Positions 33,300 through 45,303 of a stretch of DNA of 62,223 bases are shown one piece after another. Origin of the DNA: a virus (taxonomy: Duplodnaviria > Caudoviricetes); the IMG/VR virus record IMGVR_UViG_3300014720_000037, positions 1 to 62,223 of that record; one strand, given 5' to 3'. The notes below the pieces were generated by a model that did not search any database, was not told the DNA's origin, and was given only the letters and a program-made list of their open reading frames with translations. A program made the translations under genes and the position numbers. Within the stretch, counting starts at the first letter, position 1, and every line of letters starts with the position of its first letter.

Positions 33300-33986
33300 C
33301 TAACCAATAACATTACAATATTCATCTACTGTTCCATTGTTTATTAATTGATAGAGATAAACAGTTTTATCCAACATCTTTCTAATAAAGCGGCCAGCAA
33401 AGGCAATTACTTGTTTAATCTTATTAGGAGTGTTATTACTACTATACATATAACCACTATAATCAAATGTCATAGCAACAGTTAAAGCAATAACACCCAT
33501 AATAAACTTGGCCCAATTCTTAACCTTATTACCCTGCTTATTAATAGATGTTCTAAGGCCCATTAACACACCACCAACCTTATAAAATGATTTAATAGTG
33601 AATGTACAAACCTTTCTTTGATGTCTAGTAACTAAAGCATGATCTTCTTCAGTTAGATAGACCAAGTTAGAAGGCCTATTGTCTAGAGTATTCCCTGACA
33701 GATGATGAGTAACATGTTCACCAGCAGAGCCATCCATTGGCTTATTAGGACTAACAAAGAGGAAAGCTATTACTTGATGTTCACTGACCAAGTTCTTACT
33801 TCTATTAGGAGCAAACAACCAATAACCAAACTCTTCTAACAACTCTTTAATACAAGTATTAGCGGGTCTAGTTAGATCAAACATTTTATACTTATGGTGG
33901 CCCTTTTTATTCTTATTAGTAAGATATGAGGGACAACCGTCTAACAAGTCTTTAACTTCACTATATGATGGTTTAGATTTAGTCAT
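33300..33986 (-). CDS. HNH endonuclease-domain protein
   Basis: HQVIA...VTHHLSGNTLDNRPSNLVYLTEEDH. Confidence 0.75.
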   Translation of the reverse strand: MTKSKPSYSEVKDLLDGCPSYLTNKNKKGHHKYKMFDLTRPANTCIKELLEEFGYWLFAPNRSKNLVSEHQVIAFLFVSPNKPMDGSAGEHVTHHLSGNTLDNRPSNLVYLTEEDHALVTRHQRKVCTFTIKSFYKVGGVLMGLRTSINKQGNKVKNWAKFIMGVIALTVAMTFDYSGYMYSSNNTPNKIKQVIAFAGRFIRKMLDKTVYLYQLINNGTVDEYCNVIG

Positions 33987-34895: not shown

Positions 34896-35360
34896 TTATT
34901 TAACAATACTACTATCATCATTTAATTCTTGTCTCAACTCTTCTAAATACTCAATAACCCATTGACTACTACCAGCAACTTGTTTACCATTAAACACATA
35001 ATAGTGTGTAAAAGGAAGCTTAGAAGATATAAATGTCTGCAACATATGACTAGACATAATCTTATGTCTAATAGCACCTTTAATAGTACTTTTAAACACA
35101 TCATCTGATAGATTAATAGTCCTGTTTAAAGACCGCCCTAGTTGTTTAGCAGAATAACCGTACAAAGTCTTAAGTCTATCATCTCCACATCCTAAGTAAT
35201 ACCATAGACCCTCTATTGAATAGAAGGTGCCAAGGTCATCAACATGTTGAGGATATTTGTACCAATTAGATAAGAATCTACCTAACTCAGTATTACCTTG
35301 TGAATAAACATTAATGTGATCAATGCCATCATTATTAAGATTAAACATTACTACTACCAT
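34896..35360 (-). CDS. Conserved phage protein, tentatively NADAR-like
   Basis: DGIDHINVYS..TELGRFLSN..FYSIEGLWY..AKQLGR. Confidence 0.45.
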   Translation of the reverse strand: MVVVMFNLNNDGIDHINVYSQGNTELGRFLSNWYKYPQHVDDLGTFYSIEGLWYYLGCGDDRLKTLYGYSAKQLGRSLNRTINLSDDVFKSTIKGAIRHKIMSSHMLQTFISSKLPFTHYYVFNGKQVAGSSQWVIEYLEELRQELNDDSSIVK

Positions 35361-35779
35361 GCATCTAACAATTTAAGCCAAGGTAAAACCCAAGCAGATG
35401 TTATATTAAAAGTAAAATCAATAGTACTACTGTTACTAAACTCATGTCTAATAACTATAGATACATTAGAACCACTTGGACTTGAATACAACATAATTTG
35501 ATATTTATTATCTAGCATCAAGCATAATGTCTCATCAGGTGAATGCATCCAAGTAATAATACTACTAATATTATCATTACTGATATTAAAGATGACATCA
35601 AACCCACCATCAGACACACAAACTTTAAACCCACCATCTATCTTTTGAATAGTAAAACGTAGATTATCACTAACAAGAACACTAATAGACTTCATAGTTA
35701 CTATATCTATACCTATCTAATAAAAAAAATATAGGCCCTTTTTACAGAGCCTATATAAACCAATTATTAAAACAATAAT

Positions 35780-36103
35780 TGCTAATACAACAGCCAGAGG
35801 ATGACTCAAGGTTGGTTTAATAACTACCTATAACCTTTAATCTGGATTTAAAATAACTTTAACATTTAATCTTTGATCTTTGATTGTACAGTAAGTTAAT
35901 ACATGTACTTGTTTGATCTTTGAACTTATAAACTTTAACCTTTAAACTTATAAACTTTGAGTTTATTGTTTTGCTTTGTTCCAAAATACAAATGCTAATT
36001 TAATAGCTGCTTTTAGGTTTTGACCTTTTACAGTCAAAGTATATAATAGGCTTGAGACAGCAAGCCCAACTGTATTAAGATTAAGAGTTACATTGTATTA
36101 GCA
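35780..36103 (-). ncRNA. Putative 324-nt structured ncRNA with AAAG-repeat tracts
   Basis: No ORF. An 11-bp terminal inverted repeat (TGCTAATACAA/TTGTATTAGCA), a long-range GCAGCUA/UGGCUGU helix, several local hairpins and 7-8-nt repeats. Strand inferred from neighbours. Confidence 0.65.
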
Positions 36104-36170
36104 TAGAATTGTCTTTTTAGACAAAAATATGTTATAATATTAAAATAAATTTATTTTAATATTATAACAT

Positions 36171-37082
36171 ATGAATACTAAAAATGCAGGAATATATTCT
36201 ATTACATCTAAAATTAATGGTAAAAGATATATTGGTTCAAGCATTAGAATATCCTATAGATGGAAAGATCATAAAAGAAAATTAAGAAGTAATAAACATC
36301 ATTCTACTCATTTACAAAATCATTATAATAAATACGGAGAAGATGATTTAGTATTTTCTATTGTTGAAATAATAGAAAAAGATAATCTATCTCTTAAACA
36401 ATTTAAAGAATTATTATTAGAACGTGAACAAACTTATTTAGACAATTGGCAGGAATGTCAATTTAACAACTCAAAAACTGCTATATCTAGTTTAGGATGT
36501 AAAAACAAAGACACTAAATATTATGATTATCATAAAAAAGCGAACGTTTATACAACTTGGTATTTAATAGATGGTCATCGTAAATATTTTAGTTCTTATC
36601 TATTAGAACAAGATGCAATAAATCAAGTTAAATATATTAAAACATTAACAGAAAAACAAATAGTTGATTATTACAAAACATGTAAAAACTTTAGATATAA
36701 AAATTCTAAGTTTTATAGTTACATCAAAAAACTTAATTTATATAAAACTTATTATATTGTAAATAATAAAGTTCAACATTTTAGTTGTCATTTTATAGAA
36801 CAAGATGCAATAGATCAAATTAAATATATTAAAACATTAAGCGAATATGAATTACTTATATATCTTAAAGAATGTAGAAACAGACCTTATAATTATAGAA
36901 AAGATATAAAAAAAGATAGAAAAAAGAGAGGTGTAAAGGGTTTTTATTATAATAAAAAAGCTAAGATTTGGTTTATCCAATTTAAAATTAATAACAAATC
37001 AAGAAATTTTGGTTGCTATAAAACAGAAGAAGAAGCTATGAAAAAAGCTAATGAAATCAAATTAGAATTTGGATTATTGTAA
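36171..37082 (+). CDS. Free-standing GIY-YIG homing endonuclease with AP2-like repeats
   Basis: GIYSITSKINGKRYIGSS, HLQNHYNKYGEDDL and GCYKTEEEA. Confidence 0.9.
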   Translation: MNTKNAGIYSITSKINGKRYIGSSIRISYRWKDHKRKLRSNKHHSTHLQNHYNKYGEDDLVFSIVEIIEKDNLSLKQFKELLLEREQTYLDNWQECQFNNSKTAISSLGCKNKDTKYYDYHKKANVYTTWYLIDGHRKYFSSYLLEQDAINQVKYIKTLTEKQIVDYYKTCKNFRYKNSKFYSYIKKLNLYKTYYIVNNKVQHFSCHFIEQDAIDQIKYIKTLSEYELLIYLKECRNRPYNYRKDIKKDRKKRGVKGFYYNKKAKIWFIQFKINNKSRNFGCYKTEEEAMKKANEIKLEFGLL

Positions 37083-37279
37083 TCCAAATTCTAAATTATA
37101 ACATAGTATTACACTATGGTCCCTCTGCAAGGGAGTAAAATAGGCTGCCAAACAAAGCATTACCTACTCCTAAACTAAACAAGCACCCCGCTAAAATAGG
37201 ATTTATAAATAAAAATACTGTAGAAACAATCATACTAATTACACCACATATAAATTGAAACTTAAACAATTTAGTCATA

Positions 37280-37945
37280 TTATTCATTATCAGGAATAGT
37301 AATAGTATTAGTAGCATTAGCTTCTGACAGACTAATATCCACCTCATCTTCAAACTGAGTAATAAAGTCATCTAACTTATTAATCTCAGCAGTAAAGTCA
37401 AAAGGTTCATAGATCTTAGGATAGTTAGTAGCCGCATAACCAGCAGTAATCTTAGCTACAAAGGTTTCATCAGGCTCCTTTCCTTTCTCTTGCTTTTCAA
37501 GCTCTTTAGCTTTAATAACAAAGGCTTCCAACTTTCTATTATATTCAACTAGTTCTCTCTCCAATCTAGTTCTAGCAGCTTGTTGCTCCCTTCTTAGAAA
37601 GTTTAAAAGCTCCTTTTGAATGTGGATTGTCTTCTTCTTTTCAATTGCTTCTGCCACTGTAAATGTATTACCAGCAATGGTAATAGTATTACTAGCATTA
37701 GATAGAATTACAAGACTTTTAATCTTGTCCCTTCTATTAATCAATGTTGTTACAGATTGATATTGAGCCTTAGCATCCTCTCTAAACTTATCAATCTCCT
37801 TTTTTCTATTTGTAGATTCTAAATTAGAAGGGGCCACAACAAGATAGCCTTGAAAGCTAGAATTAGTAGTATTAAGCTTACTAATCCTATCAGTTAAAGT
37901 ATCAATCTCTTTAAGCGCTCTAGTAATTGTTAGTGTTACAGTCAT
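37280..37945 (-). CDS. DIP1984-like coiled-coil protein
   Basis: TITRALKEIDTLTDRI...TVAEAI...EVDISLSEANATNTI pattern. Confidence 0.55.
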   Translation of the reverse strand: MTVTLTITRALKEIDTLTDRISKLNTTNSSFQGYLVVAPSNLESTNRKKEIDKFREDAKAQYQSVTTLINRRDKIKSLVILSNASNTITIAGNTFTVAEAIEKKKTIHIQKELLNFLRREQQAARTRLERELVEYNRKLEAFVIKAKELEKQEKGKEPDETFVAKITAGYAATNYPKIYEPFDFTAEINKLDDFITQFEDEVDISLSEANATNTITIPDNE

Positions 37946-37997
37946 ATTGTTTAACCTTTGAATGTTGATTTAAATTATATTTACTCAATAGAGTAAG

Positions 37998-38082
37998 TGC
38001 CTGAGAAAGGATTTGAACCTTCACATCTTTTACAAGATAACACATCCTAAGTGTGTTGTGTCTGCCTTTCCACCACTCAGGC
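37998..38082 (-). tRNA. tRNA-Leu(UAG), long variable arm, CCA not encoded
   Basis: Acceptor stem GCCTGAG/CTCAGGC plus A, D-loop GG, anticodon arm ACACA-CTTAGGA-TGTGT and T-loop GGTTCAAATCC. Confidence 0.93.
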
Positions 38083-38088
38083 AAAAAT

Positions 38089-38115
38089 ATACTTGTTAGT
38101 ATTACTAACAAGTAT
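38089..38115. promoter_or_regulatory. Perfect palindrome just 5' of the tRNA gene (operator or processing hairpin)
   Basis: ATACTTGTTAGTA-T-TACTAACAAGTAT. Confidence 0.4.
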
Positions 38116-38267
38116 TTAGAGAAAACTTTTTATCCATATCCACATGTAATATAACTTACATCATATTACTTGTCAACTAACTATTACTTCTTAGCTACTT
38201 CAGTAACATTAGTAATAACTTGTTGTGGGTTAGCAGCTATATAAATTCCTTTAATATAGTAAATAAT

Positions 38268-38347: not shown

Positions 38348-39907
38348 CTACTTTATAGCACTGCTAACAGCATCATATCTACTAGAATAAACAGCCTCTC
38401 TCATCACATCAACAGCAGTTATAACCTTACTATTAAGTACAGCCTTCATAGTAGAAGGAGAGCAACCACTAACAAGAGCAACGCCTCTATCATCAATGGT
38501 CATAGGAACATTAGAGGCGCTACAAACATTCCAGAAGATAATATTAGGCATAGTATAACCCGCCTTATCATATAACTTCTGCATCTGTTCTAAGTTAGTT
38601 CTCTTATTACTAATACAACATCTATCAAACTGCATATCACTTACAATAATCAAAGAACTAGGCATTTGATCTTGGGGCACCTTACCTTTAACACCAGCAT
38701 CTAATATGGCTTTAATAGCCTTCATTAGATTTGTGTTCTCCATCCTTTGAGTACTTCTAACAACTGTTTGTAGTTTAGTGTATATGTCACCACTACTAGG
38801 TAAAGATACAAGTCTTGGATTACCATCAAAGACAATAAACTTATCTTTCCAGTAATCACTTGTATTCCTTTCAGCAATATATACTGCTAATGATACAGAC
38901 ACATCAATAGGTTTAATGTTTGATGTCTTTCTTTTACCAGTACCATCAGTATAGCTATAAGGACTATACATTGATCCTGACACATCAGCTAATACTAAAC
39001 CATTAAAGTCAGCCCCTTCCATGTAATTAGGTAGAGCCTGCCATTGAGCACTTAGACCTTGTCTCTCAGTATTAGATATCTTCTTCAACCCAGTATAACT
39101 ATTAGTAACAGCATTACTAATGTCATAAGGATATAAGGTGCTAGCATTAATCTTCTTCTCACCTCTACTAACAGCTTCTATGTACTGTTTATATCTATCT
39201 TCATCATGCTTTTGAAAGGCCTTTCTATACATCAACATAGCCTTAGATGGCACATGCTCATAGTTAATATTAGACCAATCACCACTACACATTGCATGTT
39301 CTACAATGTTGATTCTTGTTCTCAATCTAACTAGTAACTGTCTATAGTCTTTCTCACTTAGACCTAAATCCTTAGCAACCTTTCTACCTAGCTCCTTAGT
39401 TCTTTTACTAGAAGCATTAATAGATGGTAGCCATTTACCCAACAGAGATACTGAGTTATCACTATTTAGAGCTAATACATCCTTATCTAATTGAGCCTTA
39501 AACAAGTCAATAACAAGGGGCCACAAGTATGTGTCATGTAGTACTAATATATCATCCCATCTACCATAGAATGGAATCAAGTGTACTAATTTCCTAGCAA
39601 GAGGACTAAGACTAATAGCTAACTCTCTAAACACATGTCTAAATACAGATCTTTCACCTTGACCACCATTACCACTACTATTACTTCTAACATCTCTGCC
39701 ATAGAATAGTATTCTTAAAGCTGTCTCTTCATCCTCATTGAGAGCCATATTAAACAGATGAGTAATACCACTTAAATCATCTCTAGAGGAGCCAACCTTA
39801 CCAAAGAAGTCAACACAACTATTAAGAGTACTTGTATATGCCTTAGCACCATTCCAAGTAGTAGTTGTGTTTAATCCTCTATTCAAACTACTAATAAAAT
39901 CTGTCAT
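38348..39907 (-). CDS. DUF2828 / TROVE(Ro60)-like helical protein with a C-terminal vWA domain
   Basis: RD..GGQGER..FR, YGRWDD, GKWLP, INYEHVPSKAM, LYPYD, DVSGSM, TNL, SDMQFD, FWNV and VSGCS. ATG at 39907 is preferred over TTG at 39919. Confidence 0.85.
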   Translation of the reverse strand: MTDFISSLNRGLNTTTTWNGAKAYTSTLNSCVDFFGKVGSSRDDLSGITHLFNMALNEDEETALRILFYGRDVRSNSSGNGGQGERSVFRHVFRELAISLSPLARKLVHLIPFYGRWDDILVLHDTYLWPLVIDLFKAQLDKDVLALNSDNSVSLLGKWLPSINASSKRTKELGRKVAKDLGLSEKDYRQLLVRLRTRINIVEHAMCSGDWSNINYEHVPSKAMLMYRKAFQKHDEDRYKQYIEAVSRGEKKINASTLYPYDISNAVTNSYTGLKKISNTERQGLSAQWQALPNYMEGADFNGLVLADVSGSMYSPYSYTDGTGKRKTSNIKPIDVSVSLAVYIAERNTSDYWKDKFIVFDGNPRLVSLPSSGDIYTKLQTVVRSTQRMENTNLMKAIKAILDAGVKGKVPQDQMPSSLIIVSDMQFDRCCISNKRTNLEQMQKLYDKAGYTMPNIIFWNVCSASNVPMTIDDRGVALVSGCSPSTMKAVLNSKVITAVDVMREAVYSSRYDAVSSAIK

Positions 39908-39914
39908 ATGTTTG

Positions 39915-40461
39915 TACAAGTTAATTTGTTTTCTTTTACCTTAGAAAATTGTATTAATTGCTGAATTAACTTTTAACAATTAATGTGTTATACAAGATAG
40001 TTACTTATTTTGTCTAAATGCCAAAGGTTAGTTAATAATTTGCTGAACTATCTTAGATTATTTAATTACAAGATGACTTTGTTTTCTTAAGACAATTAAT
40101 GGTAAGAAATATAATAGTTGCTGAGTCATCTTATTAGAGATTTACAAGATACGTCTTTTGCCATTGGCAAGCATTACTAGTGCTTATTTATATTATTGCT
40201 GAAGTATCTTAGATTATTTAATTACAAGATAGTATATTTAACTTATTTTAGCCTGGAGCCAAAGGTTAATTAATTGCTGAACTATCTTTGTTTATTGCAA
40301 GATGATTACTGTTTCTTAGTTTTACCTTTGCAAGAAATATAATAATTGCTGAATCATCTTATGTTTAATATCTACTATTACAAGTTAATTTAACCACCAA
40401 CTGGCTAGCAAGCTGCTATTCAGGAATTGAACCTAATATAAAATTATTGCTGAATTAACTT
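39915..40461 (-). ncRNA. Array of seven hairpin units with invariant CAGCAA (putative Y-RNA-like small RNAs)
   Basis: Units at 39915-39972, 39991-40054, 40067-40132, 40143-40210, 40223-40288, 40296-40360 and 40379-40461. The 9-bp closing stems show compensatory changes and the inserts are variable. Confidence 0.85.
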
Positions 40462-40481
40462 TATCTAATAGTATATACTAA

Positions 40482-41537
40482 CTATGTAGTTTCATCCTTA
40501 CCATGCTTCTTCATAAACTTATTGTTCTTAATTTTAATAAACTTATAACCATTACTAAGAACAACGCCTTCATTTAATGTTTTACCATCAAGAATAGAAT
40601 ATTCATGTTGTGCTAATTGATTTACCAACTCCATAAGATCTAATGAGAAGAGCCCTCTATATAACTCAGGTACAAAGTACAAGTTAGTACTTCTTCTAAG
40701 TACATTCAAATCAATATAAACACCATCAACATAGATAGCATATATATAAACAACTGGCTTATCTAAATCATAGTTAAAACCTTTAATATATGGGATAACT
40801 TCACCAATGATTTGCACAACAGAGCCACTAACATTCTTACCACATAGATTAGACAATAGAGATTTAAATGTGCTATAAGAGTTATCCCAATCAATACATC
40901 CAATAGTATTAACCCAAGCCCTCTTATAAGCATTATCAACGCCTTGTTTAAACACTAAGCCTTGATCCCATAAACCTTTACTACTGATGTACTCCTGACC
41001 ATCTATCCAAATAATGTTTATTTGACTACCATGTAACTTACTAGTAATAGTTACATCTTGGCCCTCTTTAAATCTATCTAGATATACAGATGGATATTTA
41101 CAATCATGTTTGATGTCATGCTTTAACTCTTTATCAAATACTTCAACGGTGTCTTTTAACTCATTAGGAATATCAGGCACATACTTAGTAATGCCTAACA
41201 CATCACTAATATCAACACCAACTTCAAACTCACTAATGTCATACCCCATTTTATTGAGTACTTCATTAGGAATAACAATGCCTTCTGACTCTTGCTCTCT
41301 AAGTACTACAAAGCCAACCCTATCTTTATTTGGCCCTCTAAGATACTTGTTCCATTCCTCTAACATAATAGAGTGAGTTAATACACTGTTCTTAGGAACA
41401 GCTACACCCTTATCACCATTCTTATATGTTCCTTTAGCAACAACATATTGATGATCACCAATGCTTACTAGTTCTAACAGATCAGCATTAGGATGTGGAT
41501 ATACATTTACACGTTCAACGCTTACTTTAAATGACAT
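40482..41537 (-). CDS. ATP-dependent RNA ligase, DRB0094/Rnl5 family
   Basis: HPNADLLEL N-domain, motif I TSKLHGS, GEV, EGVV and KIKN. Confidence 0.85.
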   Translation of the reverse strand: MSFKVSVERVNVYPHPNADLLELVSIGDHQYVVAKGTYKNGDKGVAVPKNSVLTHSIMLEEWNKYLRGPNKDRVGFVVLREQESEGIVIPNEVLNKMGYDISEFEVGVDISDVLGITKYVPDIPNELKDTVEVFDKELKHDIKHDCKYPSVYLDRFKEGQDVTITSKLHGSQINIIWIDGQEYISSKGLWDQGLVFKQGVDNAYKRAWVNTIGCIDWDNSYSTFKSLLSNLCGKNVSGSVVQIIGEVIPYIKGFNYDLDKPVVYIYAIYVDGVYIDLNVLRRSTNLYFVPELYRGLFSLDLMELVNQLAQHEYSILDGKTLNEGVVLSNGYKFIKIKNNKFMKKHGKDETT

Positions 41538-41797: not shown

Positions 41798-43645
41798 TTA
41801 CCAACTACTATCACTAGATGATGAAGACGATGACCAGTCACTACTAGAAGATGAGGACCAACTACTATCACTGCTAGAAGAGGATGAATAACCACTACTA
41901 TATCCTCTATTAGAAGAAGATGAGTAGCTGGGTCTTTTATCCTCATTAGTATATGTAATAATAGCAGCATTAAATGAATTGTAATCCTCATTATCAAGGT
42001 GCCTTGTTAGAGTCTGCTTTCTACTACTACTATAGGATGACAGCTTAGCTTTAGCCTCTTTGTACTTCTTAGCATCAACTACAAACTGTTTAACATTGGA
42101 TTTAAGACCTTCTAATGTCTTAGCAGTCTCATAGAATCTATTATCAAGAGGCAATTGTGAGATAGTATTGGTTAAATTATCCCTCTGATTTGTAAGCTTT
42201 GTAGATAGATTAGTAATGCTTAGATCCTTAATAAGTTGATCTCTAAGTTCTTTAGTATTGTTATAGTCCTTATCTTGTTGTTTATAAGAAGTTACAAACA
42301 GTTCTAACTCTTGTTTAATCTTATTAAGAGCATCAATGTCATAGTTATAATCTGTCAAATTACTAGCTTGGCCAGCTAATGAGGAGACATAAGTATTATC
42401 ATCAAAGGAGATAGGATCTGTATAGTATGTATTGTTATTAGTAACAACATATTTATACAAGTCTTTAATAGCTTGTTTAGTTTTAACAAACAAGCTAATC
42501 TTTTCATCTTCTAATGTAATAGTACTATAGAATCTACTATAAACATCCCTTCTAACCTCATATGATTGAGCATCAACAACCTCTTGATATAGTCTATGAA
42601 CAGGAGAGACAGACACATATCTAATACTATTCTCTGGGGCATACAGTTTAGTAGCACCATCTAACAGTTCTTTATATTGTTCAGCCTCATGTTTAAGTTT
42701 ATTTTGTCTATTAATCTCAGCAATAGGATCAGTGCCACTAACAACACTAATATGCTCAAGGAAATTACTAATATAGGATATAGTAGCATCTATATCTCTA
42801 TTAATGTTATCAATAGTAACTACAAAAGAATCCCATGAGGGCTTATTAAACAAAGCCTCCTTAAAAGAGGGCAGTTTAATAGTTAGATACAACTCACTAA
42901 TATTATTAATCGATACTAACAATCTATCACATATAGCCTTAGTCTCACCTGTATAACCATTCAAGTATGTTGATTGTTCAACCAACTTACTATAGTTAGT
43001 GTTGATTGATTCAACTAGATCTTCATACTTGTTATATAGATCTTGTTTATCCTTAAAGTAGTATATAACAGTCTTGTATGATGTGTATATAACAGCTAAC
43101 ATAACTATTATAAACACAATAATAAATAAGCTATTAAAGAAGAAGCTAACACTATTATTAAATGCAATCTTACCTTCAATCTTAGTTCTAATACCCTCAG
43201 CAACTACTGGAATAAAACCTTGTGGATTCTGTGGTAAAAACCTCTTAATATTAGGTCTAACAATGTCACTATCAATCTCTTCTTTAGTGATATATGATCT
43301 AAAATCAGCACCAACATTAGCACTAAATGAGCCCTTACTAGAATCAGTTACAAGCCTATTATAGACAAGAGTTACATAGCTATTACCACTAACATTGCCA
43401 GTGCTAATAAACCTATCATTAATAGTAACTGCCCTCTCATTACTAATGCTGTTTAATGAGTAGAATTGAATGTTTAAACTCTTACTCTTATCACTAACAG
43501 TAGTTAGCTCTTGTTGCAACTTAATATTATCAAAGCCCAACACAGGATCACTCTGAACAACAGCAGGGGCTGCTAATGCAGACTGACCAAACAACAATAG
43601 TGATGATACTGTAGTAATACCAACCAAACTTAACTTTCTAATCAT
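41798..43645 (-). CDS. Secreted/membrane protein (TPM-like N-domain, TM helix, coiled coil, Ser-rich tail)
   Basis: Signal peptide (SALA), TM segment FIIVFIIVMLAVIY and an SSSSDW-repeat tail. Confidence 0.55.
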   Translation of the reverse strand: MIRKLSLVGITTVSSLLLFGQSALAAPAVVQSDPVLGFDNIKLQQELTTVSDKSKSLNIQFYSLNSISNERAVTINDRFISTGNVSGNSYVTLVYNRLVTDSSKGSFSANVGADFRSYITKEEIDSDIVRPNIKRFLPQNPQGFIPVVAEGIRTKIEGKIAFNNSVSFFFNSLFIIVFIIVMLAVIYTSYKTVIYYFKDKQDLYNKYEDLVESINTNYSKLVEQSTYLNGYTGETKAICDRLLVSINNISELYLTIKLPSFKEALFNKPSWDSFVVTIDNINRDIDATISYISNFLEHISVVSGTDPIAEINRQNKLKHEAEQYKELLDGATKLYAPENSIRYVSVSPVHRLYQEVVDAQSYEVRRDVYSRFYSTITLEDEKISLFVKTKQAIKDLYKYVVTNNNTYYTDPISFDDNTYVSSLAGQASNLTDYNYDIDALNKIKQELELFVTSYKQQDKDYNNTKELRDQLIKDLSITNLSTKLTNQRDNLTNTISQLPLDNRFYETAKTLEGLKSNVKQFVVDAKKYKEAKAKLSSYSSSRKQTLTRHLDNEDYNSFNAAIITYTNEDKRPSYSSSSNRGYSSGYSSSSSSDSSWSSSSSSDWSSSSSSSDSSW

Positions 43646-44169
43646 ACTTAATTAACTCCTTATATTAATCCACATCATTTCTATTAATAAGCCAATACCC
43701 TAAATCATCTAATGTAAAAGACTCAGTAAATATTTTATACTTTAAGTCAGTAAAATGACTAATAAGATCTTTTAACTCCCACCATTTATCATTCCAATAA
43801 ATCTTTGAATTGATGTCTCCATTACTAATAGTTCTAAATATAAGGCGGTCTCTACCACCACTATGATCATGCACATGATAATAAATCCATTCTTCCATAT
43901 TAACTCCTTCAATTTAAATACTAATAACAGTTGCTACTGCCATCAACTTACCATTCTCTGTTAGATACAAGTTATCACTAACATTAATAGATAAGCCCTC
44001 AACAAATAACACCTTAAGATGGGCCTTATCTAAACCACCATCAAACACTAATTCAACACTAAAACATTGAATAATAGGATTATTCAAGCTCATTAGACAT
44101 AAATAAGGATAGTCTAATGGAGGTGCTCTTCTTTTAACACCCTCAATCCAACATATACTTACAATCATA

Positions 44170-44394: not shown

Positions 44395-45303
44395 ATGAAT
44401 AATAATAGCGGTATATATTCTATTACAAGTAAAACAAATGGTAATAGATATATAGGATCTTCTATATCAATAAATAAAAGATGGAATCAACATAAATTCA
44501 ATCTAAGACTCAACAAACATCATTCTTCATACTTACAAAATCATTTTAATAAATATGGTGAAGATGATTTGATATTTGATATCCTTGAAATAATTGAAAA
44601 ACATGATTTATCTACAAAAGAATTTAGAGTCGTTTTATTAGAAAAAGAGCAGCAATACTTAAATGACTGGAAAAATTGCCAGTTTAATGTAAATAAAAAA
44701 GCAGACTCTTCTTTAGGTTCAAAACATATAGATGCCAATTATTATACATTTTGTCCTAATAGACAAAAATATAGAGTTTTTTATAAAGTAAAAACAAAAA
44801 ATCTAATGTTTGGATGTTTTGATACGGAACAAGATGCAAAAAATCAAGTTGATTATATTAAAACATTAACTGAAGATGAGTTAATAGAGCTACACAAATT
44901 AAATTATAAAGGTAAAACATCAGCAGGAGTTAGAAGTAAAAACGGATGTAAAGGATATAGAAAAAAACTTAATAGTTGGGCTGTTGAATTTACAATACAT
45001 TCTAAACGTATCTACTTAGGATCATATAAAACAGAAGAAGAAGCAAAAGAAAAAGCTGAATATTTTAAAACCTTAAAGCCTGAAGAACTGATAAATTTAT
45101 ATGAATTAAACTATAAAAATAAAAGTTTAATAGGAAAAAGAATGAGCAGATGTAAAGGATATAGTAAAAATAAAAATACTTGGAAGGTTAGATTTATAAT
45201 AAAAGGAAAAGAAAAATACTTTGGTAGTTATAAAACAGAAGAAGAAGCTAAGCAAAAAGCAGAAGAAGTTAAAAAAGAATTAGGAGGTTTATTAAGATTT
45301 TAG
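44395..45303 (+). CDS. Free-standing GIY-YIG homing endonuclease with AP2-like repeats
   Basis: GIYSITSKTNGNRYIGSS and GSYKTEEEA twice. Paralogue of 36171-37082. Confidence 0.9.
   Translation: MNNNSGIYSITSKTNGNRYIGSSISINKRWNQHKFNLRLNKHHSSYLQNHFNKYGEDDLIFDILEIIEKHDLSTKEFRVVLLEKEQQYLNDWKNCQFNVNKKADSSLGSKHIDANYYTFCPNRQKYRVFYKVKTKNLMFGCFDTEQDAKNQVDYIKTLTEDELIELHKLNYKGKTSAGVRSKNGCKGYRKKLNSWAVEFTIHSKRIYLGSYKTEEEAKEKAEYFKTLKPEELINLYELNYKNKSLIGKRMSRCKGYSKNKNTWKVRFIIKGKEKYFGSYKTEEEAKQKAEEVKKELGGLLRF

What the first reader, a model, noticed from the sequence alone, without database searches (positions are those of the whole stretch)
35780..37945. Second candidate system: 324-nt structured RNA with AAAG repeats downstream of a DIP1984-like gene
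Seen: an ORF-free region is closed by an 11-bp stem (35780-35790 with 36093-36103). It has an inner long-range helix (GCAGCUA at 36004-36010 with UGGCUGU at 35790-35796) and local hairpins GGCTTG/CAAGCC, TTTGAC/GTCAAA and GTACA/TGTAC. About ten 7-8-nt repeats lie inside (minus strand UCAAAG, UUUAUAAG, UUUAAAGG, UUAAAG, UUCAAAG, AUCAAAG), in two tracts split by a hairpin. It lies on the same inferred strand as the coiled-coil gene 37280-37945, separated by a small membrane ORF and an inserted GIY-YIG gene. Inference: an RNA scaffold with iterated sites for an oligomeric protein, possibly the DIP1984-like product.
Basis: partly seen in the sequence, partly recalled or inferred. Interest (0 to 1): 0.75.

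Follow-up and report, generated by a model that had tools for sequence, protein, structure and literature searches.

The report
New phage RNA beside helical protein gene
The flagged stretch is a real, roughly 325-base structured non-coding RNA carrying a run of AAAG-type seven-base repeats; the same RNA follows the same small helical protein gene in many unrelated phages, including phage T5, and it matches no described RNA family.

Summary
Window 35779-36104 (minus strand) is one member of a conserved structured RNA, median 317 nt. This RNA lies directly downstream of homologues of the 37280-37945 protein (phrog_1491, DIP1984/3kdq-like fold), on the same strand. I detected it in 82 of 89 non-identical phage or metagenome loci, and in 22 of 24 loci from bacterial genome assemblies that played no part in building the detectors.

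Shared anatomy:
- a closing stem P1 of about 13 bp;
- an H-type pseudoknot near the 5' end;
- a single-stranded tract of N-U-Y-A-A-A-G heptads;
- an AAAUCC box that opens a 5-bp helix (Pa);
- a 3' GGCUG that joins Pa to P1;
- then a terminator or a tRNA.

P1 and Pa show heavy compensatory change, G-U pairs and strong strand asymmetry, so the element works as RNA and not as DNA iterons. Nothing in Rfam 15 matches it, and eight literature searches found no description.

In this window a GIY-YIG homing-endonuclease cassette and a small membrane ORF separate the protein gene from its RNA.

Binding of the protein to the heptads is plausible but untested.

The parts
35779..36104 (-). The structured RNA, 326 nt from the first to the last base of closing stem P1
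   Evidence: Limits set by the P1 duplex. MFE fold z = -4.57. Only one copy in the window by nhmmer.
36091..36103 (-). P1, 5' strand (UGCUAAUACAAUG)
   Evidence: Pairs with 35780-35792. P1 covaries: 11 of its 13 pairs show changes on both sides in a 15-sequence MAFFT alignment.
35780..35792 (-). P1, 3' strand (UGUUGUAUUAGCA)
36074..36090 (-). Junction after P1. Most relatives carry GAAAAC..AAAC here; the window's version is divergent.
   Evidence: Read from the alignments.
36047..36073 (-). H-type pseudoknot. S1 is ACAG 36070-36073 with CUGU 36057-36060.
   Evidence: A tight pseudoknot descriptor at this position hits 38 of 55 RNAs. Twenty shuffles give a mean of 1.8 and a maximum of 7. There are 22 distinct S1 and 30 distinct S2 sequence pairs.
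35962..36046 (-). Variable region holding local hairpins, including TTTGAC/GTCAAA
   Evidence: Length and sequence are not conserved among relatives.
35857..35961 (-). Heptad tract: units such as UCAAAG, UUUAUAAG and UUAAAG in two runs split by the GUACA/UGUAC hairpin (about 35888-35910)
   Evidence: Family consensus N-U-Y-A-A-A-G. AAG-to-AAG spacing peaks at 7 nt (100 cases) and 8 nt (47 cases).
35794..35849 (-). 3' domain: AAAUCC box (35844-35849); helix Pa, CCAGA 35841-35845 with UCUGG 35794-35798; inner hairpins 35799-35840. C 35793 links Pa to P1.
   Evidence: nhmmer hit, E = 1e-6. Pa covariation: 98.3% of cells paired, 44 cells changed on both sides against 12.1 in shuffles.
35720..35756 (-). 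Intrinsic terminator: 11-bp stem followed by a T run, just after the RNA
   Evidence: Also seen in the alignments.
36105..37113 (+). Inserted GIY-YIG homing-endonuclease cassette: ORF 36171-37082, and a perfect 23+23-nt palindrome at 36127-36172 that covers the start codon
   Evidence: Pfam GIY-YIG 2e-8; PHROG homing endonuclease; palindrome (I1). In relatives the RNA starts a median of 10 nt after the stop codon.
37114..37278 (-). Small 54-aa hydrophobic ORF between the protein gene and the cassette
   Evidence: no family. That it is a real gene is not shown.
37280..37945 (-). Partner protein gene, 221 aa: helical bundle, phrog_1491, DIP1984/3kdq-like fold
   Evidence: PHROG 6e-46. AF2 pLDDT 87.7. 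3kdq: Z 10.2, probability 0.99, profile E-value 0.022.
37997..38082 (-). tRNA-Leu(UAG) just upstream of the protein gene, on the same strand

Best explanation
Window 35779-36104 (minus strand) encodes a member of a previously undescribed family of phage structured non-coding RNAs. The RNA is normally made on the same transcript as the gene upstream of it, a roughly 210-aa helical protein with a DIP1984-like fold. It is often part of a tRNA operon, and it ends at a terminator or at the 5' end of the next tRNA.

The RNA folds into a closed frame made of stem P1, a 5' pseudoknot and a 3' domain (Pa). This frame holds out a single-stranded tract of about 7 N-U-Y-A-A-A-G heptads. In the 55 RNAs the tract spans 8-126 nt, median 44 nt.

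The most likely mechanism is that the tract is a multi-site binding platform and the RNA forms a ribonucleoprotein with several copies of its cognate protein. The frame would act as the specificity or nucleation element.

Shown here: the RNA family, its fold, its strand, and its strict linkage to the protein gene. Inferred: co-transcription, protein binding and stoichiometry. The biological role of the complex is unknown.

In this phage a homing-endonuclease cassette has been inserted between the gene and the RNA.
For: Linkage. ORF-free gaps of 300-1200 nt follow the homologue in all 9 diverse named phages fetched: hosts Pseudomonas, Lysinibacillus, Ralstonia, Clostridium, Escherichia (T5-like), Vibrio, Lactococcus, Proteus and Erwinia. 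A 9-sequence nhmmer seed of the 3' domain hit 63 of 103 downstream regions (E <= 10). Every hit in the other loci was on the sense strand and 170-390 nt after the stop codon. A structure descriptor hit 78 of 89 non-identical downstream regions, against 13 of 89 reverse complements, 10 of 84 upstream regions and 8 of 89 shuffles. Either method: 82 of 89. On 24 bacterial-genome loci that were not used to build the detectors, the descriptor hit 21 of 24 on the sense strand and 1 of 24 on the antisense strand; either method gave 22 of 24.

Structure.
- P1: the 16 nt after GCUG pair with the first 1-105 nt after the stop codon in 55 non-identical RNAs. Mean duplex energy is -16.2 kcal/mol, against -9.3 for mismatched partners, and the stem sequences differ between RNAs.
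- P1 plus Pa on a MAFFT alignment that was not fitted to any structure: 94.7% of cells paired against 68.3% in shuffles; 71 cells changed on both sides against 20.7; 0 of 500 shuffles as high; sliding the partner gives 23-48% paired.
- Pa on 48 sequences: 98.3% paired, 44 double changes against 12.1.
- Pseudoknot: 38 of 55, against a shuffle mean of 1.8.

RNA rather than DNA. AAAG occurs 344 times against CTTT 80 times in the 55 RNAs. 69 of 707 P1 pairs are G-U, and 42 of 55 RNAs have at least one.

Transcription unit. The median gap from stop codon to RNA is 10 nt. 0 of 54 have a terminator-like site between gene and RNA. 21 of 54 have a terminator within 80 nt after the RNA. 9 of 54 have a tRNA starting 5-12 nt after it. 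All 243 tRNAs in the loci lie on the same strand.

Only the protein is a constant neighbour. The 61 flanking ORFs scanned belong to many unrelated PHROGs.

Two divergent loci (L073, L075) keep a closing stem around purine-rich repeats: (GAAAAG)n in L073 and a shorter AAAGG-rich stretch in L075. They lack the usual 3' boxes, which points to the repeats as the core (read by eye).
Against: - No expression data: no RNA run holds this stretch.
- There is no direct evidence that the protein binds RNA or forms oligomers, and no RNA-binding family matches it.
- Linkage of gene and RNA would also be expected for a 3'-UTR element.
- In the window the RNA is 1175 nt from the gene. An antisense endonuclease gene and a terminator-like hairpin (37094-37062) lie between them, so co-transcription is doubtful here and a separate promoter would be needed.
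- 7 of 89 loci were missed by both detectors. By eye, 5 of these carry the boxes and 2 are variants.
- The heptads are degenerate. Only G and the two A's before it were fixed, by the way I anchored the units.
Confidence: 0.5

Rival explanations
1. The RNA is real, but it acts on a host factor and not on its neighbour protein. It would be a decoy or sponge whose iterated A-rich heptads titrate a host RNA-binding protein, a ribonuclease or a translation component. The neighbour protein would be a helper, or functionally separate.
For: Multi-copy short motifs in single-stranded RNA are how sponge RNAs of the CsrB/RsmZ type work (recalled knowledge). The module sits inside tRNA operons in 46 of 102 loci, which fits a role in translation or RNA metabolism. 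The protein has no recognisable RNA-binding domain.
Against: The same heptad motif is kept in phages of Gram-negative, Gram-positive and cyanobacteria-related hosts. That is easier to explain by a partner that travels with the RNA. The protein gene is the only constant neighbour.
Confidence: 0.25
2. The element acts in cis as a structured 3' untranslated region. It would stabilise, process or autoregulate the upstream mRNA or the tRNA precursor, and would not be a free-standing RNA.
For: It starts a median of 10 nt after the stop codon with no terminator in between (0 of 54). It is followed by a terminator (21 of 54) or abuts a tRNA (9 of 54).
Against: Three hundred nucleotides with a pseudoknot, a closing stem that joins both ends, and a repeat tract is far more than known 3' stabilisers need. 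In this window the RNA has been kept intact although it is cut off from the gene by about 1.2 kb of inserted DNA.
Confidence: 0.15
3. The repeats are DNA sites: iterons of a replication origin, or a centromere or operator bound by a DNA-binding protein.
For: The region is AT-rich and has a 22-bp direct repeat made of three units (D3). Runs of 7-8-bp units resemble the operator arrays of ribbon-helix-helix proteins (recalled knowledge). A sigma-70-like promoter match lies at 36020-36047 on the plus strand.
Against: The motif is strongly strand-asymmetric (AAAG 344, CTTT 80). The helices keep G-U pairs that would be mismatches in DNA (69 of 707). The helices covary. The element always lies on the sense strand of the neighbouring gene and ends at a terminator or tRNA.
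Confidence: 0.03

Closest known systems
GOLLD and ROOL RNAs (large ornate non-coding RNAs of phages and prophages; Rfam families, names recalled)
   Same: Phage-borne, elaborately structured, function unknown, and commonly next to tRNA genes. Here 46 of 102 loci carry tRNAs, all on the same strand.
   Different: No Rfam match at the gathering threshold in the window or in 9 relatives' loci. It is much smaller, about 320 nt. It is tied to one protein gene and built around a heptad repeat tract.
TRAP with the trp leader, and HutP with hut mRNA (ring-shaped proteins reading iterated NAG triplets; recalled knowledge)
   Same: Short purine triplets (here AAG) repeated at a fixed short spacing in single-stranded RNA. 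HutP sites have a 7-nt period, like the 7-8 nt found here.
   Different: Those sites lie in 5' leaders and control attenuation, and the proteins are beta-rich rings. Here the sites lie in a dedicated closed RNA downstream of the gene, the protein is a helical bundle, and binding is not shown.
CsrB/RsmZ-type sponge RNAs
   Same: Many copies of a short motif in one non-coding RNA.
   Different: The motif is not GGA in hairpin loops. The units are contiguous and single-stranded. The RNA is phage-encoded and has a conserved pseudoknot and closing stem.
Stable RNAs of the phage T4 tRNA cluster (species 1 and 2; recalled knowledge)
   Same: Non-tRNA stable RNAs embedded in phage tRNA operons, function unknown. 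A free-standing GIY-YIG endonuclease (SegB) sits in that T4 region (PMC2330249, search listing and abstract start only).
   Different: No sequence comparison was made. The T4 RNAs are shorter, and I know of no linked protein for them.
Y RNA with Ro60
   Same: An RNA closed by pairing of its two ends, encoded beside a protein gene. This phage also has a Ro-like gene at 38348-39919.
   Different: No Y RNA or YrlA match in Rfam. The constant neighbour is the DIP1984-like gene, not the Ro-like gene.
DIP1984-type protein, PDB 3kdq (Corynebacterium diphtheriae, function unknown)
   Same: Best structural match of the partner protein: Z 10.2 with 151 of 152 residues aligned, Foldseek probability 0.99, profile E-value 0.022 over the conserved N..T-[VL]-A-[ED]-A core.
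   Different: No Pfam or NCBIfam model reaches its threshold. The phage protein is about 60 residues longer. Whether bacterial DIP1984 genes carry such an RNA was not tested.

Membership tests
Any Rfam 15 family (including GOLLD, ROOL, Y RNA, tmRNA, group I/II introns, 6S) | Match to the family covariance model | tested here: not met
   Whole window at the gathering threshold: only the tRNA. Region 35600-36300 at E <= 10: only weak terminator-driven matches far below gathering scores. Nine relatives' loci: tRNAs and one drum RNA elsewhere.
tmRNA | tRNA-like end domain and tag reading frame | tested here: not met
   ARAGORN finds no tmRNA in the window or in 102 loci. The heptad period of 7-8 nt is not a reading frame.
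Group I intron carrying the homing endonuclease | Intron core around the endonuclease ORF, on the same strand, interrupting a gene | tested here: not met
   No intron model match. The ORF lies on the opposite strand. The RNA occurs without any endonuclease in most relatives.
Type III toxin-antitoxin RNA (ToxI-like) | Tandem repeats of about 34-45 nt upstream of a ToxN-type endoribonuclease gene | tested here: not met
   The units are 7-8 nt. The RNA lies downstream of the gene. The protein is a helical bundle. There are no PADLOC hits.
DNA iterons of an origin or centromere | Function as double-stranded DNA: no need for strand bias or for RNA-type pairing | tested here: not met
   AAAG 344 against CTTT 80. 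G-U pairs in 42 of 55 P1 stems. Covarying helices.
Iterated-site RNA bound by an oligomeric protein (TRAP/HutP-like mode) | Regularly spaced short motifs in single-stranded RNA | tested here: met
   AAG spacing peaks at 7 nt (100 cases) and 8 nt (47 cases), with multiples at 14 and 21-23 nt.
Iterated-site RNA bound by an oligomeric protein (TRAP/HutP-like mode) | A cognate protein that oligomerises and contacts each unit | not testable with these tools
   Needs binding and stoichiometry experiments.
DIP1984 protein family (partner protein) | Match to the curated family model | tested here: not met
   No NCBIfam or Pfam hit at E <= 0.01, and none relevant at E <= 10.
DIP1984 protein family (partner protein) | Same fold as the solved member 3kdq | tested here: met
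   VIA-align Z 10.2 with the next row at 7.5. Foldseek probability 0.99, E-value 0.12. Profile against 3kdq sequence, E-value 0.022. For helical bundles a Z under about 13 can reflect a common arrangement, so this is suggestive only.

The most novel reading that the evidence does not exclude
The RNA and its neighbour form a self-contained phage ribonucleoprotein of a new type. Several copies of the DIP1984-fold helical protein would line up on the AAAG heptads, as a ring or short filament. A dedicated scaffold RNA (closing stem, pseudoknot, 3' domain) holds the heptads out. The particle would be produced from tRNA operons and would act on host translation, tRNA metabolism or RNA-directed defence. 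The module has spread by horizontal transfer through tailed phages of many bacterial phyla, including T5.
Probability: 0.3. Interest if true: 0.9.

Novelty: categorically new. Interest (0 to 1): 0.8.

Why it matters
If this holds, a widespread RNA-protein module has gone unannotated in hundreds of sequenced phages. The protein has homologues in 735 of 50,697 phage records. The T5-type RNA is present in 440 records, and in 48 of the 60 rows listed nothing is annotated at that site. The family includes the model phage T5, where the gene is T5.085, currently labelled 'tail fiber protein', and the RNA lies at NC_005859 43143-43494 on the minus strand.

This gives a function-unknown protein family (DIP1984-like, with a solved structure but no known role) a concrete candidate ligand. 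It adds a mid-sized RNA with an unusual heptad array to the short list of complex phage RNAs. It is also directly testable in a laboratory phage-host pair. Finally, it corrects a recurrent mis-annotation.

Tried and rejected
- **Rfam.** The scans gave nothing relevant.
- **Expression.** No RNA holder is listed among public runs, so expression could not be examined.
- **Contigs of four lake or freshwater DNA runs laid on the region.**
  - They showed identical sequence in run X2, broken at the palindrome.
  - A single run-X4 contig joins 35760 to 38185. That might be a relative lacking the whole tRNA-protein-endonuclease-RNA block, but the flank is short (side 38), the likeness threshold was low, and the letters between are unknown. 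I do not use it as evidence.
- **Close relatives.** Proteins at 70-79% identity exist (P0002-P0012), but their DNA could not be reached.
  - Single-protein scans of viral and metagenome contigs found none.
  - The alignment scan returned only relatives at 29-48% identity.
  - So an endonuclease-free allele of this locus was not seen.
- **Complex prediction** with two copies of the protein gave no verdict.
- **No lead on the protein's function** from PADLOC, NCBIfam, Pfam or the protein atlas.
- **No conserved third gene** in the PHROG scan of 61 flanking ORFs.
- **Literature.** Eight searches found no description of this RNA or of T5.085. I read passages of PMC10690425, a catalogue of 8,495 candidate structured RNAs from IMG/VR. 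Its supplementary tables, which I could not open, may list part of this motif under a number. Passages of PMC12783706 concern a different T5 protein.
- **Ideas considered and dropped.**
  - Anticodon-loop mimicry by the heptads: the units are contiguous, not in stem-loops.
  - Slippery-site frameshifting: there is no ORF.
  - Hfq A-R-N triplets or CsrA GGA sites: the heptad phase and the base at +3 do not fit.
  - A Y RNA for the nearby Ro-like gene: no model match, and the linkage is to the other gene.
- **Not done.** I did not build a covariance model. Detection rests on nhmmer and on a descriptor I wrote myself, which has a measured background of about 10-15%.
Full report
**Setting.** The window is a 62-kb fragment of an uncultivated virus from IMG/VR, estimated 28% complete. 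It is AT-rich, and its near-identical holders are lake-water DNA runs. Its genes are phage-like: an rIIA-like gene, NUDIX, HNH and GIY-YIG endonucleases, an RNA ligase of the DRB0094 type, and a Ro-like DUF2828 protein. No phage in the INPHARED collection is close at the DNA level.

**The observation.**
- The 11-bp perfect inverted repeat 35780-35790 / 36093-36103 is there.
- There are ten 7-8-nt units: 8 CTTTRA and 2 CTTATAAA on the plus strand. CTTTRA runs at 24.7 per kb here against 1.85 per kb window-wide, and this is the only such cluster on either strand.
- The three local hairpins are present.
- There is no ORF of 60 aa or more. One 41-aa ORF crosses the repeats.
- The minus strand folds better than shuffles: z = -4.05 for 35770-36115 and -4.57 for 35779-36104. 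The plus strand gives z = -2.83.
- An intrinsic terminator on the minus strand (35756-35729 plus a T run) follows directly.

The closing stem alone would not be convincing. About 27 comparable inverted repeats occur in the first 60 kb (my count from its list).

**The decisive test: regions downstream of homologues.** The 221-aa protein of 37280-37945 matches phrog_1491 (E = 6e-46, labelled 'tail fiber protein'). It has tblastn relatives in 735 of 50,697 phage records.

I fetched nine loci from phages of very different hosts: Pseudomonas PN09, Lysinibacillus LC76P1, Ralstonia RsoM2USA, Clostridium D-1873, a T5-like coliphage, Vibrio Cody, Lactococcus AM4, Proteus Mydo and Erwinia Deimos-Minion. 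In all nine the gene is followed by an unannotated or barely annotated gap of 300-1200 nt. Read on the sense strand, each gap holds:
- a run of AAAG-type heptads;
- then an AAAUCC box;
- then a GGCUG box;
- in five of the nine (PN09, LC76P1, RsoM2USA, Cody, AM4), a terminator hairpin with a U run after it, as in the window.

I then collected more loci: 17 from metagenome contigs and 80 from IMG/VR, the best 80 of 423 relatives.
- A 9-sequence nhmmer seed of the 3' domain hit 63 of 103 downstream regions at E <= 10. In the other loci every hit lay on the sense strand, 170-390 nt after the stop codon.
- A structure descriptor that I wrote hit 78 of 89 non-identical downstream regions. It requires AWNC, a 5-bp helix, a CUG-like triplet, and a P1 duplex of -10 kcal/mol or better. 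The controls were 13 of 89 reverse complements, 10 of 84 upstream regions and 8 of 89 shuffles.
- Either method: 82 of 89.
- Of the 7 misses, 5 show the boxes and a P1 by eye. Two (L073, L075) are variants in which a closing stem encloses purine-rich repeats, (GAAAAG)n in L073 and a shorter AAAGG-rich stretch in L075.
- As a test set that played no part in building these detectors, I used 24 loci from bacterial genome assemblies: mostly Bacillales, plus Paenibacillus, Clostridia and several metagenome-assembled genomes. The descriptor hit 21 of 24 on the sense strand and 1 of 24 on the antisense strand. Either method gave 22 of 24.

**Structure.**
- *Closing stem P1.* In 55 non-identical RNAs the 16 nt after GCUG pair with a segment 1-105 nt after the stop codon. 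Mean duplex energy is -16.2 kcal/mol, against -9.3 when 3' strands are paired with the 5' regions of other loci. The stem sequences differ freely between RNAs.
- *P1 and Pa by RNAalifold.* On a plain MAFFT alignment of 15 full-length members, RNAalifold recovered a 13-bp P1 and a 5-bp helix, Pa. 19 of its 22 predicted pairs show changes on both sides.
- *Counting those 18 pairs.* 94.7% of cells are paired against 68.3% in shuffles. 71 cells are changed on both sides against 20.7. 0 of 500 shuffles reach the observed values. Sliding the partner by 1-3 columns gives 23-48% paired.
- *Pa on 48 sequences.* 98.3% paired. Pair types include CG 29 / UA 17; UA 28 / AU 7 / UG 7 / CG 2 / GC 1; and GC 23 / AU 10 / UA 5 / GU 3.
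- *Junction.* The GGCUG box is therefore the end of Pa (GG), one unpaired C, and the start of P1 (UG, paired with a conserved CG or UG).
- *Pseudoknot.* Near the 5' end a tight H-type pseudoknot descriptor, placed 30-60 nt from the 5' end, hits 38 of 55 RNAs. Twenty shuffles give a mean of 1.8 and a maximum of 7, and other positions along the RNA give 3-9. There are 22 distinct S1 and 30 distinct S2 sequence pairs.

**The repeats.**
- In the 55 RNAs AAAG occurs 344 times and CTTT 80 times.
- Spacing between successive AAG peaks at 7 nt (100 cases) and 8 nt (47 cases), with multiples at 14 and 21-23 nt.
- Anchored on AAG, the unit reads N-U(0.61)-Y(0.72)-A(0.72)-A-A-G, followed by N-U(0.80)-Y.
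- The tract spans a median of 44 nt, about 7 units, with a range of 8-126 nt. It sits between roughly 47% and 64% of the RNA's length.
- A period of 7-8 nt excludes a reading frame.

**RNA, not DNA.**
- the strand asymmetry of the motif;
- G-U pairs, 69 of 707 P1 pairs, with at least one in 42 of 55 RNAs;
- the covariation in the helices;
- the fixed sense-strand orientation, with a terminator or tRNA at the end.

**Transcription unit.**
- The RNA starts a median of 10 nt after the stop codon (range 1-105).
- 0 of 54 loci have a terminator-like site between gene and RNA.
- 21 of 54 have one within 80 nt after the RNA.
- 9 of 54 have a tRNA gene starting 5-12 nt after the RNA.
- All 243 tRNAs found in the loci are on the same strand.
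- 46 of 102 loci contain at least one tRNA.
- The flanking ORFs are otherwise unrelated from locus to locus (61 scanned). Homing endonucleases, an RNA ligase, PhoH and HU-like proteins recur a few times each.

So the gene-RNA pair is the unit. It is usually embedded in, or next to, a tRNA operon.

**This window's peculiarity.** Here the gene and the RNA are 1175 nt apart. Between them lie two inserts:
- a 54-aa hydrophobic ORF (37114-37278);
- on the opposite strand, a GIY-YIG endonuclease gene (36171-37082).

The endonuclease start codon sits inside a perfect 23+23-nt palindrome (36127-36172). A 46%-identical paralogue lies at 44395-45303. The RNA itself is intact from P1 to P1 and keeps its terminator.

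The palindrome carries a TGnTATAAT-like sequence on both strands. I read this from the sequence; the promoter scan listed only the plus-strand copy. It might supply a promoter for the RNA, but that is inference only.

**The protein.** AlphaFold2 on a 38-sequence alignment gives a confident helical bundle with a small sheet (pLDDT 87.7). The best solved match is 3kdq, an uncharacterised Corynebacterium diphtheriae protein:
- Foldseek probability 0.99, E-value 0.12;
- VIA-align Z 10.2 over 151 of 152 residues, next entry 7.5;
- profile against its sequence, E-value 0.022 over the conserved core.

No curated family model reaches its threshold, and there is no defence-system match. 'DIP1984-like' is thus a reasonable structural label and says nothing about function. 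Conserved basic residues (R20, R72, K76, K104) are compatible with nucleic-acid binding, but that is inference.

**What it is, and how likely.**
- That this is a conserved structured RNA family linked to this protein family, I regard as established (about 0.95).
- That it works as a ribonucleoprotein in which the heptads bind several copies of the cognate protein is the best mechanistic reading (about 0.5 for the whole statement). The reasons are that the protein is the only constant partner, that the motif is kept across hosts of different phyla, and that two divergent loci keep little but a stem and the repeats.
- Rivals: a decoy for a host factor (0.25), a cis-acting 3' element (0.15), DNA sites (0.03).

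**Known or new.** Rfam 15 has no match for the window or for nine relatives. In 440 T5-like records the site carries no annotation in 48 of the 60 rows listed. The other rows show small hypothetical ORFs, one 'promoter', or a record with no annotation at all.

In T5 itself the gene is T5.085 ('tail fiber protein', 43505-44143, minus strand). The RNA maps to 43143-43494, minus strand, at 97.7% identity to the T5-like copy.

Eight literature searches found nothing on it. The one catalogue that might list it under a number keeps its lists in supplements I could not open (PMC10690425, passages read).

The nearest comparisons are, by context, GOLLD and ROOL RNAs and the stable RNAs of the T4 tRNA cluster, and, by logic, the iterated-triplet sites of TRAP and HutP and sponge RNAs. 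It is a member of none of these.

Noticed in passing
window 39920-40481 (minus strand), between the RNA ligase gene (40482-41537) and the Ro-like DUF2828 gene (38348-39919): A 562-nt ORF-free gap holds a tandem array of 6-7 units spaced 72-156 nt apart. Each unit starts with ..AAGAUnnnUUCAGCAA and ends with a complementary nnnAUCUUGUAA, so each can form its own closing stem, and the stem sequences differ between units. There is no Rfam match at E <= 1, and the whole-gap fold is no better than shuffles (z = -0.8). Given the adjacent Ro-like gene, this is a candidate array of Y-RNA-like small RNAs.
   Followed up: partly
window 37997-38082 (minus strand); Bacillus phages vB_BsuS_PJN02 and 2S-4: The tRNA-Leu(UAG) next to the Ro-like gene is the only part of 35300-38200 with a DNA match in the phage collection (77% identity). 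In those Bacillus phages the matching, unannotated stretch lies about 0.9 kb from their own DUF2828 gene. In Synechococcus phage B3 the closest Ro-like homologue (49% identity) is followed by a 110-nt 'tRNA-pseudo' and then tRNAs.
   Followed up: no
window 36127-36172: A perfect 46-nt palindrome buries the start codon of the GIY-YIG endonuclease gene and carries TGnTATAAT-like sequences on both strands. It looks like the hairpin-masked start sites known for some T4 endonuclease and late genes (recalled knowledge).
   Followed up: partly
window 36171-37082 and 44395-45303 (both plus strand, among minus-strand genes): Two paralogous GIY-YIG homing endonuclease genes, 46% identical over their full length. 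An HNH endonuclease gene lies at 33300-33986.
   Followed up: partly
L105 about 2520-2610 and L016 about 2750-2820 (inside the variable region of their RNAs): A T-arm followed by a 3' acceptor-like sequence is immediately followed by a matching 5' acceptor plus D-arm-like sequence. This is the order expected of a circularly permuted tRNA-like element. ARAGORN calls no tRNA there.
   Followed up: no
L011 3910-4017 (Clostridium phage D-1873 contig): A drum RNA (RF02958, 47.7 bits, gathering score 43) lies about 0.8 kb downstream of the protein gene, in the same long ORF-free gap.
   Followed up: no
L073 and L075 (IMG/VR), first 250 nt after the protein gene: Variant form of the element: a closing stem of about 13 bp encloses purine-rich repeats. 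In L073 this is roughly 190 nt of (GAAAAG)n-type hexamer repeats, and in L075 a shorter AAAGG-rich stretch. Both lack the usual pseudoknot and 3' boxes.
   Followed up: partly
window 35760 / 38185: One contig of a lake-water run joins these two points. That would remove the tRNA-Leu, the protein gene, the small ORF, the endonuclease and the RNA as one block. The support is a single short-flanked contig at 80% likeness.
   Followed up: no
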